This document shows positions 2,451-3,050 of a DNA stretch of 64,000 nt, one piece after another. The stretch lies in assembly GCF_013122565.1 (NCBI RefSeq), contig NZ_CP053258.1. One strand, written 5' to 3'. Under the pieces are notes generated by a model. That model worked only from the letters and a program-made list of their open reading frames with translations, was not told the DNA's origin and ran no database searches. Within the stretch, counting starts at the first letter, position 1, and every line of letters starts with the position of its first letter. The DNA comes from Escherichia coli. Its GTDB lineage: Bacteria > Pseudomonadota > Gammaproteobacteria > Enterobacterales > Enterobacteriaceae. The position numbers and the translations under genes are program-made.

Positions 2451-2633
2451 ATGAATAAAATCAAACTTTATATTCCTCCGCTATTTCTCGGCTTTGTTAT
2501 TGTGCCGCTGTTGGTGTGGCCGACGGTGGTTGCGCTGGCGGCTTTTGGTATCACGCTGAGTTTTCTGGGGGAGTTACTGTTCTTAATCCCGATCATAGTC
2601 CGACGTATGTCACTTCTGGAAGCACAACTTTGA
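2451..2633 (+). CDS. small hydrophobic protein (60 aa, ~2 TM), or N-terminal fragment of a split membrane-protein gene
   Basis: ORF track; same reading frame as ORF 2667-3050, separated only by one TGA at 2631-2633. Confidence 0.35.
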   Translation: MNKIKLYIPPLFLGFVIVPLLVWPTVVALAAFGITLSFLGELLFLIPIIVRRMSLLEAQL

Positions 2634-2666
2634 TTATCGGCTGAATATACGCTTGTTTTCTGTGCA

Positions 2667-3050
2667 ATGGTGGGCGTTGGTTGGCAATTCTCTCGCAGAA
2701 CGTCACCTGAATTAAAAAACAGACTGCATTTTTGGCTGGTCTTTACACCGGTTTATTTCTGGTTGCTTCTGTGGAATATCATTTTCTATATCGGGCCAGC
2801 GAAAAATGCATTGCTGGAAAATATCCGCAATTTCTTTTTAACAATTGTCTGGTTACCGCTGAATTTTTCGCCACTTTGGTCCCAACCGTGGACTGACTTT
2901 GTCGGTCCAATAAGCGCACAGCTTGGTTTTGCGTTGGGATATTATTGCCAGTGGCGTAGCAAAAATAGAAGCCAGGGGCAGAAGTGGGGTGAGTGGGGAA
3001 CGTGTCTTAGTTTTGTTACGTTGGGTATGATGGCATGGGTTTTGCGGTAA
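2667..3050 (+). CDS. polytopic membrane protein (127 aa), or C-terminal part of a split gene 2451-3050
   Basis: ORF track; hydrophobic Trp/Phe/Leu-rich segments; in frame with upstream ORF. Confidence 0.4.
   Translation: MVGVGWQFSRRTSPELKNRLHFWLVFTPVYFWLLLWNIIFYIGPAKNALLENIRNFFLTIVWLPLNFSPLWSQPWTDFVGPISAQLGFALGYYCQWRSKNRSQGQKWGEWGTCLSFVTLGMMAWVLR

What the first reader, a model, noticed from the sequence alone, without database searches (positions are those of the whole stretch)
2451..3050. Single in-frame TGA separates two hydrophobic ORFs that would otherwise form one ~199-codon membrane protein
ORFs 2451-2633 and 2667-3050 are in the same frame; the only interruption is TGA at 2631-2633. 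Both halves are strongly hydrophobic. This may be a nonsense-inactivated gene, a sequencing error, or a two-gene arrangement with an internal restart at ATG 2667.
Basis: seen in the sequence. Interest (0 to 1): 0.5.

Follow-up and report, generated by a model that had tools for sequence, protein, structure and literature searches.

The report
Recent nonsense mutation in membrane-protein gene
A single G-to-A change has turned a tryptophan codon into a stop inside an accessory E. coli membrane-protein gene of unknown function next to glpD, so the two hydrophobic ORFs are one ordinary, recently broken gene.

Summary
ORFs 2451-2633 and 2667-3050 share a frame, and TGA 2631-2633 is the only interruption of a 199-codon reading frame. 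The window is E. coli, and the gene is the last gene of the variable islet between glgP and glpD. Every ortholog examined is one uninterrupted 184-204 aa protein. That covers E. coli, E. marmotae, E. albertii, cryptic clades and a 36%-identical metagenomic relative. The stop column holds Trp, Gly, Glu or Thr. The closest alleles read CAA CTT TGG TTA TCG where the window reads CAA CTT TGA TTA TCG, so the change is TGG>TGA. An independent short-read assembly (SRR11451224) carries the same TGA, so it is not an assembly error. ATG 2667 has no Shine-Dalgarno sequence, and its Met is not conserved. No SECIS-like hairpin follows the UGA. The family is under purifying selection (dN/dS 0.2-0.46). The window allele has no second lesion and no excess of amino-acid changes after the stop, so the lesion is young. 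At least 80% of the gene is present in about 70% of complete E. coli genomes, and it is deleted in K-12 (the yzgL scar). Its function is unknown. Verdict: an ordinary strain-specific pseudogene of low interest.

The parts
2451..3050 (+). Whole disrupted gene: a 199-codon reading frame for a polytopic membrane protein (Escherichia-restricted, unnamed family), now a pseudogene
   Evidence: It is colinear over its full length with single-ORF orthologs of 196-204 aa. dN/dS among alleles is 0.2-0.46.
2437..2440 (+). AGGA Shine-Dalgarno-like motif ahead of the true start at ATG 2451. The upstream gene's TAA stop at 2446-2448 lies 2 nt before the start, so the two genes are tightly linked
   Evidence: Sequence. 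The anti-SD duplex is -4.0 kcal/mol.
2451..2630 (+). N-terminal remnant: 60 codons with two strongly hydrophobic segments (residues ~11-29 and ~32-50). This is the only product expected at normal levels
   Evidence: Hydropathy. GRAVY is +1.5.
2631..2633 (+). Premature TGA stop at codon 61, derived from TGG (Trp) by one G>A transition at 2633
   Evidence: E. marmotae (L016) and DRR173017 (L014) read CAA CTT TGG TTA TCG, against CAA CTT TGA TTA TCG in the window. Across 102 homolog clusters the column holds 29 W, 29 G, 34 E, 1 N and 9 gaps, and none has a stop.
2634..3050 (+). Untranslated or barely translated 3' part of the gene (codons 62-199 plus TAA), still free of further lesions. It contains the family's most conserved motif, GPISAQLGFALGYYCQW (codons 152-168)
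   Evidence: pN/pS after the stop is 0.30, against 0.28 among intact alleles.
2667..2669 (+). It is not a real start codon
   Evidence: There is no SD: the duplex is +0.9 kcal/mol, worse than about 96% of window ATGs. The residue is Met or Ile across alleles. The exact 127-aa product is absent from a collection of 15 billion proteins.
1672..2448 (+). Upstream partner gene (258 aa, soluble, all-helical, function unknown), intact. It forms a conserved, tightly linked pair with the membrane-protein gene
   Evidence: The pair is also found on metagenome scaffold L017, where the partner is 52% identical and the membrane protein 36% identical. The AF2 model has pLDDT 84.9.

Best explanation
This is one gene, not two. 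It encodes a ~199-aa polytopic inner-membrane protein of an unnamed, Escherichia-restricted family, and it is the last gene of the variable islet between glgP and glpD. In this strain a single G>A transition at position 2633 changed codon 61 from TGG (Trp) to TGA. Ribosomes that start at ATG 2451 therefore terminate after 60 residues and release a two-helix hydrophobic stub. The remaining 138 codons hold the rest of predicted helix 3, three or four further helices and the family's most conserved motif. They are no longer translated, apart from traces by UGA read-through or unassisted re-initiation. The gene is thus a young, strain-specific pseudogene. Because it is the last gene before the convergent glpD, the stop should have no polar effect on other genes. 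Shown here: the stop, the ancestral codon, the integrity of orthologs, read support, the absence of SD and SECIS signals, and purifying selection in the family. Inferred: loss of function, and the recent date of the mutation.
For: Single-ORF orthologs are annotated in E. coli strain 48, O157:H7, N39, MY203L1 and 2013C-4282. At least 80% of the gene is present in 3,824 of 5,426 complete E. coli genomes, and every sampled row at that coverage lists one 'hypothetical protein'. Of 102 homolog clusters none stops at this column, and the closest alleles (80-84% identical) all have Trp. At codon level the context is identical apart from TGG/TGA. A 36%-identical metagenomic homolog is also one ORF, with Thr at the column. 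The TGA is reproduced in an independent short-read assembly that is 100% identical over window 162-3116. ATG 2667 has no SD, and Met73 is not conserved. No stable hairpin follows the UGA (-6.5 kcal/mol over 50 nt), and Rfam finds nothing there. Family dN/dS is 0.2-0.46. The window allele has 12 private nonsynonymous and 5 synonymous changes, similar to intact alleles, and no other lesion. pN/pS downstream of the stop is 0.30, against 0.28 among intact alleles. Neither half is an NCBI protein, although the three upstream neighbours from the same record are (QJU26574-76). The gene is dispensable: K-12 lacks it through a 2.8-kb deletion, and other alleles carry frameshifts or partial deletions (P0105 and P0103; H77 and H78).
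Against: No expression or protein data exist for this strain. No allele closer than about 89% nucleotide identity was found, so the ancestral TGG is inferred from related alleles, not from an otherwise identical intact copy. The stop could also have come from a GGG or GAG lineage by more steps, though the flanking codons argue for TGG. Low-level UGA read-through by tRNA-Trp would restore exactly the ancestral residue, so a complete loss of function is not proven. I could not confirm that SRR11451224 is a data set independent of the one used for the finished genome.
Confidence: 0.9

Rival explanations
1. Leaky or attenuated gene. The UGA is read through at a low rate by near-cognate tRNA-Trp, which restores exactly the ancestral Trp. 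The strain would then still make a small amount of full-length protein, and the mutation would act as a strong down-mutation rather than a null.
For: The ancestral codon is Trp. From established knowledge, not tested here: wild-type E. coli tRNA-Trp is the main natural UGA misreader. The downstream reading frame is still perfectly intact.
Against: The base after the stop is U (UGA-U). From memory of Poole, Brown and Tate 1995, that is among the more efficient UGA termination contexts, and UGA-C is the leakiest. No read-through-stimulating structure is present. No other allele keeps a stop here. The intact downstream frame is equally well explained by a recent mutation.
Confidence: 0.06
2. Functional split gene. 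The 60-aa N-terminal hairpin and a 127-aa C-terminal protein, re-initiated at ATG 2667, are both made and assemble into a working two-piece membrane protein.
For: The two ORFs are 33 nt apart in one frame. From general knowledge, terminating 70S ribosomes can re-initiate nearby. Both parts contain hydrophobic helices.
Against: ATG 2667 has no SD. Met73 is Ile in many alleles. The stop and the restart both fall inside one predicted helix, 55-83, in a low-confidence model. No ortholog is split this way among 102 clusters and 42 representative hits. The 127-aa product is not recorded in any source.
Confidence: 0.02
3. Sequencing or assembly error: the true sequence is TGG and the gene is intact.
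For: A single-base difference is the kind of error long-read assemblies can contain.
Against: The Logan short-read assembly of SRR11451224 carries the same 60-aa ORF and is identical to the window at all 2,955 compared positions. The error would be a substitution, not a homopolymer indel.
Confidence: 0.015
4. Selenocysteine or other programmed recoding of the UGA.
For: The stop is UGA, the only codon E. coli can recode as Sec.
Against: No SECIS-like stem-loop lies immediately 3' of the UGA and Rfam has no match there. Homologs have W, G, E or T at the column and never Cys. The stop is unique to this strain.
Confidence: 0.005

Closest known systems
Intact orthologs annotated 'hypothetical protein' next to glpD in E. 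coli (for example WP_000981061.1 in O157:H7, WP_044186756.1 in strain 48, WP_001553546.1 in N39, WP_000981270.1 in 2013C-4282), plus those in E. marmotae, E. albertii and Escherichia sp. E4702
   Same: Same position as the last islet gene, convergent with glpD. Same length (196-201 aa). Colinear with the fused window frame at 70-84% amino-acid identity. Same conserved motifs.
   Different: They are uninterrupted. The window copy has TGA at codon 61. The window allele is also a distinct mosaic allele, at most about 89% identical in nucleotides to any allele found.
The yzgL locus of E. coli K-12 (pseudogene stub between glgP and glpD)
   Same: Same chromosomal site, and the same outcome: loss of this membrane-protein gene in one lineage.
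   Different: K-12 lost the gene through a ~2.8-kb deletion that fuses the first ~225 nt of the PstS-like gene (the yzgL stub) to the last ~60 nt of the membrane-protein gene. The window strain keeps the whole gene with a single point mutation.
Ordinary lineage-specific nonsense pseudogenes in Enterobacteriaceae, for example rtcR and rtcB marked 'internal stop' in E. coli MY203L1 in the same neighbourhood
   Same: A single premature stop in an otherwise intact, non-essential accessory gene, with intact orthologs in sister strains.
   Different: Nothing in kind. Here the gene's function is unknown.
Bacterial selenoprotein genes (fdhF type: UGA plus an adjacent SECIS)
   Same: An in-frame UGA inside a conserved reading frame.
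   Different: There is no SECIS hairpin, no Cys/Sec homology at the column, and the stop is not conserved.

Membership tests
Escherichia ~199-aa glpD-adjacent membrane-protein family (unnamed; no Pfam, NCBIfam or PADLOC model) | Full-length colinear sequence homology | tested here: met
   E = 3e-106 to the nearest cluster, with 99-100% coverage by proteins of 196-204 aa. Alignments A2 and A3.
Escherichia ~199-aa glpD-adjacent membrane-protein family (unnamed; no Pfam, NCBIfam or PADLOC model) | Conserved position: last gene of the glgP-glpD islet, convergent with glpD | tested here: met
   Loci L001-L003, L005, L010, L011, L016 and L019.
Escherichia ~199-aa glpD-adjacent membrane-protein family (unnamed; no Pfam, NCBIfam or PADLOC model) | Uninterrupted reading frame (a functional member) | tested here: not met
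   TGA at codon 61. The window copy is therefore a pseudogene member of the family, not a functional one.
Nonsense-mutation pseudogene | Orthologs intact, with a sense codon one mutational step from the stop | tested here: met
   TGG in L002, L011, L013, L014 and L016, in an otherwise matching context.
Nonsense-mutation pseudogene | The stop is real (supported by reads) | tested here: met
   The independent Logan assembly of SRR11451224 is identical, TGA included. Raw pile-ups were not inspected.
Nonsense-mutation pseudogene | Loss of the full-length product | not testable with these tools
   This needs proteomics, a Western blot or ribosome profiling of the strain.
Two-gene operon with translational coupling or internal restart | Stop and downstream start conserved in orthologs, with an SD ahead of the second start | tested here: not met
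   No ortholog has the stop. The SD duplex is +0.9 kcal/mol. Met73 alternates with Ile.
Selenoprotein gene (UGA = Sec) | SECIS stem-loop directly 3' of the UGA | tested here: not met
   The MFE of 2631-2680 is -6.5 kcal/mol with no apical hairpin adjacent to the UGA. Rfam has no hit there.
Selenoprotein gene (UGA = Sec) | Cys or Sec at the homologous position in relatives | tested here: not met
   The column holds W, G, E, N or T.

The most novel reading that the evidence does not exclude
The stop is not a null. Near-cognate tRNA-Trp read-through of UGA re-inserts the ancestral Trp, so the strain would keep a trickle of authentic full-length protein. Alternatively, the 60-aa two-helix stub may have an activity of its own. 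Either way the mutation would tune dosage in a hypervariable, recombining, Escherichia-specific membrane-protein and helical-partner module of unknown function.
Probability: 0.06. Interest if true: 0.3.

Novelty: new member of a known kind. Interest (0 to 1): 0.1.

Why it matters
It matters little beyond annotation. The two ORFs should be annotated as one pseudogene, not as two small membrane proteins. The strain is a natural, probably loss-of-function, mutant of an uncharacterized accessory gene. At least 80% of that gene is present in about 70% of complete E. coli genomes, and it is already deleted in K-12. Two side results are modestly useful. First, the gene forms a conserved pair with a 258-aa helical protein whose fold is widespread but unassigned. 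Second, the alleles of this locus are highly divergent and shuffled by recombination. Anyone who studies the islet could use this strain and its intact sister as a natural comparison.

Tried and rejected
- Function of the membrane protein: Pfam, NCBIfam and PADLOC gave nothing.
- A profile search of 1.84 billion representatives found only 42 hits. They were one full-length cluster, fragments, and one distant metagenomic homolog.
- AlphaFold2 on the 24-sequence alignment gave pLDDT 52.5 and pTM 0.34. I judged that too poor for a fold search and ran none. Only the secondary structure was used.
- Function of the 258-aa partner: the AF2 model was good (pLDDT 84.9). Foldseek against the PDB gave nothing (best E = 0.31). 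AFDB50 returned only 'uncharacterized' proteins plus a few labelled HEAT-repeat or AlkD-like, so no function could be assigned.
- An immunity-protein or polymorphic-toxin reading of the islet (YbbD-like neighbour, tandem paralogs) was considered. It has no direct support and is not claimed.
- A literature search for yzgL returned nothing relevant.
- I tried to infer the source record's annotation from the glpD accession number, but no accession was returned.
- The sister genome GCA_018578885.1 did not serve as an otherwise identical intact control. It carries a different recombinant allele with 115 of 600 differences.
- The terminator-like hairpin at 2507-2542 lies inside the coding region of all alleles. 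I regard it as a chance match.

Full report
**1. Observation**

The sequence at 2451-3050 reads as described.
- ATG 2451 opens a 60-codon ORF that ends at TGA 2631-2633.
- Eleven open codons follow, then ATG 2667 opens a 127-codon ORF that ends at TAA 3048-3050.
- Everything is in one frame, so the region is a 199-codon frame with a single internal stop.
- The N-terminal part is strongly hydrophobic (GRAVY +1.5). It has two clear hydrophobic segments, at residues 11-29 and 32-50.
- The C-terminal part is only mildly hydrophobic overall (GRAVY +0.2), although it contains further hydrophobic helices.
- The frame coincidence alone is not remarkable. The 64-kb window holds 42 pairs of long stop-free stretches split by one stop, many of them simply neighbouring genes.
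- The case for a single gene rests on homology.

**2. Where it lies**

- The flanking genes glpD, glpE and glpG are 98.4% identical to E. coli.
- The three upstream proteins are exact matches to E. coli proteins QJU26574-QJU26576 from a 4.82-Mb chromosome. The window is therefore E. coli.
- The gene is the last one in the variable islet between glgP and glpD, and it is convergent with glpD.

**3. Orthologs are one gene**

- In E. coli strain 48, O157:H7, N39, MY203L1 and 2013C-4282 the orthologous position holds one annotated CDS of 196-201 aa.
- At least 80% of the gene is present in 3,824 of 5,426 complete E. coli genomes. Every sampled row at that coverage lists a single 'hypothetical protein'.
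- A search of 5.8 billion protein clusters with the fused sequence found 102 clusters, all from Escherichia where a source names the organism. Most are 196-204 aa and cover both halves.
- At the column of the stop they have Trp (29), Gly (29), Glu (34) or Asn (1), and none ends there. The closest alleles (80-84% identical) all have Trp.
- At codon level, E. marmotae and the DRR173017 contig read CAA CTT TGG TTA TCG. The window reads CAA CTT TGA TTA TCG, which is one G>A transition at 2633.
- The only distant relative found among 1.84 billion representatives is also one ORF, with Thr at the column. It is P0152, 184 aa, 36% identical, from a metagenome.

**4. The stop is real**

The exact 60-aa ORF occurs on a contig that Logan assembled from SRA run SRR11451224. 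That contig is identical to the window at all 2,955 compared positions, 162-3116. The TGA is therefore supported by short reads. I could not check whether that run belongs to the same isolate as the finished genome. Either way the stop is present in read data.

**5. Rival readings tested**

- *Restart at ATG 2667.*
  - The 22 nt upstream pair with the anti-SD at +0.9 kcal/mol, worse than about 96% of all ATGs in the window. The true start at 2451 has an AGGA motif and -4.0 kcal/mol.
  - Met73 is Ile in many alleles.
  - The 127-aa product is absent from a collection of 15 billion proteins.
- *Selenocysteine or recoding.*
  - No stable hairpin follows the UGA: -6.5 kcal/mol over 50 nt.
  - Rfam finds nothing there. 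Its only matches are REP-type elements at 3062-3179.
  - Homologs never have Cys at the column.
- *Read-through.*
  - It cannot be excluded at trace level, and it would re-insert the ancestral Trp.
  - The UGA-U context is, from memory of the literature, an efficient terminator.
  - Nothing here suggests programmed read-through.

**6. Is it a real gene, and how old is the lesion?**

- Pairwise dN/dS among ten alleles is 0.19-0.69, and 0.2-0.46 for all but one closely related pair. This is a protein-coding gene under purifying selection.
- Along the gene pN/pS is 0.12-0.62. It is lowest over codons 141-175, which include the motif GPISAQLGFALGYYCQW.
- The window allele has no frameshift and no second stop.
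- Its private changes are 12 nonsynonymous, including the nonsense change, and 5 synonymous. Intact alleles show similar ratios.
- Downstream of the stop its pN/pS against Trp-type alleles is 0.30, against 0.28 among the intact alleles themselves.
- No relaxation of constraint is detectable, so the mutation is recent.

**7. Consequence (inferred)**

- Translation ends after residue 60 and releases a two-helix stub.
- In the AlphaFold2 model the helices are 10-44, 55-83, 91-114, 120-137, 147-170 and 175-197. The model has low confidence (pLDDT 52.5), so only the secondary structure was used.
- The stop and the putative restart both fall inside helix 55-83. The most conserved part of the protein is lost.
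- Because the gene is last before the convergent glpD, no polar effect on other genes is expected.

**8. The gene is dispensable**

- K-12-type genomes keep only the last ~60-65 nt.
- A blastn comparison with O157 shows a clean deletion of about 2.8 kb. It joins the first ~225 nt of the PstS-like gene, annotated as the yzgL pseudogene stub, to the tail of this gene.
- Other alleles show frameshifted tails (P0105 on 89 contigs, and P0103) or partial deletions (H77, H78).

**9. What the family is**

- There are no Pfam, NCBIfam or PADLOC matches. The family is practically confined to Escherichia.
- In many genomes, and on the distant metagenomic scaffold, the gene directly follows a soluble protein of 255-278 aa, with a gap of 2 nt or an overlap. 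In the window this partner is at 1672-2448.
- On the metagenomic scaffold the partner is 52% identical. The two genes therefore form a conserved pair, although O157-type islets lack the partner.
- The partner folds confidently (pLDDT 84.9, pTM 0.85) into an all-helical repeat. It has no PDB match.
- It has 163 AFDB50 matches at E <= 0.001. The best reach TM 0.7-0.8 with proteins of ~250 aa from many phyla. Nearly all are uncharacterized, and a few are labelled HEAT-repeat or AlkD-like.
- No function can be assigned. My best guess is a small membrane-protein and cytoplasmic-partner accessory module. That is inference only.

**10. Verdict**

This is an ordinary, young, strain-specific nonsense pseudogene (TGG>TGA) of an uncharacterized accessory membrane-protein gene. 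Interest is low.

Noticed in passing
window 1717-5656 (compared with L005, GCA_018578885.1): The sister genome is identical to the window at 1-1716 and 5657-6448 but differs at 211 positions in between, peaking at 73 of 250 in 2501-2750. A ~4-kb recombination tract spans the 3' part of the 258-aa gene, the membrane-protein gene, glpD, glpE and part of glpG. The interrupted allele arrived on, or arose in, a mosaic segment.
   Followed up: partly
window 872-1660 and 1672-2448: Two tandem paralogs (262 and 258 aa, 38% identical) of an uncharacterized, Escherichia-centred family with conserved Cys residues. The AF2 model is confident (pLDDT 84.9) and all-helical. It matches ~250-aa uncharacterized proteins across many phyla (TM 0.7-0.8) but nothing in the PDB.
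   Followed up: partly
L017 121-1499 (metagenome scaffold ERZ28569670): The partner gene and the membrane-protein gene occur as an overlapping pair in a distant relative (52% and 36% identity), so the pair is a conserved two-gene module outside the named Escherichia genomes.
   Followed up: yes
window 3062-3179: REP-type repeats lie between the gene and glpD. Rfam ES036 (CssrF) scores above its gathering threshold at 3137-3179 (39.4 bits), and there are sub-threshold naRNA4 (CssrE) matches at 3070-3133. The short-read contig of SRR11451224 ends here, at 3116, as expected for a repeat.
   Followed up: no
L018 1289-1565 (E. coli K-12 ER2796): K-12's yzgL pseudogene stub is the scar of a ~2.8-kb deletion that removed the PstS-like genes and all but the last ~60 nt of this membrane-protein gene.
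   Followed up: yes
window 2451-3050, across alleles: Alleles of this gene differ by 11-30% in nucleotides although the flanking core genes are about 98% identical. The nearest-neighbour allele changes along the gene, which indicates a mosaic. pN/pS stays below 1 everywhere (0.12-0.62), so this is deep, recombining allelic diversity rather than detectable positive selection.
   Followed up: partly
L010 9654-12667 (E. coli MY203L1): In this related genome rtcR and rtcB are both annotated as pseudogenes with internal stops. The window's rtcR ORF (6917-8515, minus strand) is intact.
   Followed up: no
window 162-869: This 235-aa ORF is annotated elsewhere as 'YbbD family protein' (L003), and it matches NCBIfam PRK09781 only weakly (E = 2e-5, residues 7-52). 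The 90% cluster returned for it also lists 255-aa proteins that resemble the 258-aa family, which looks like a clustering oddity.
   Followed up: no
window 2507-2542: A 16-pair, G-T-tolerant hairpin followed by a run of T is flagged as terminator-like, inside the N-terminal coding region. It is probably a chance match in a GC-rich stretch that encodes a transmembrane segment.
   Followed up: no
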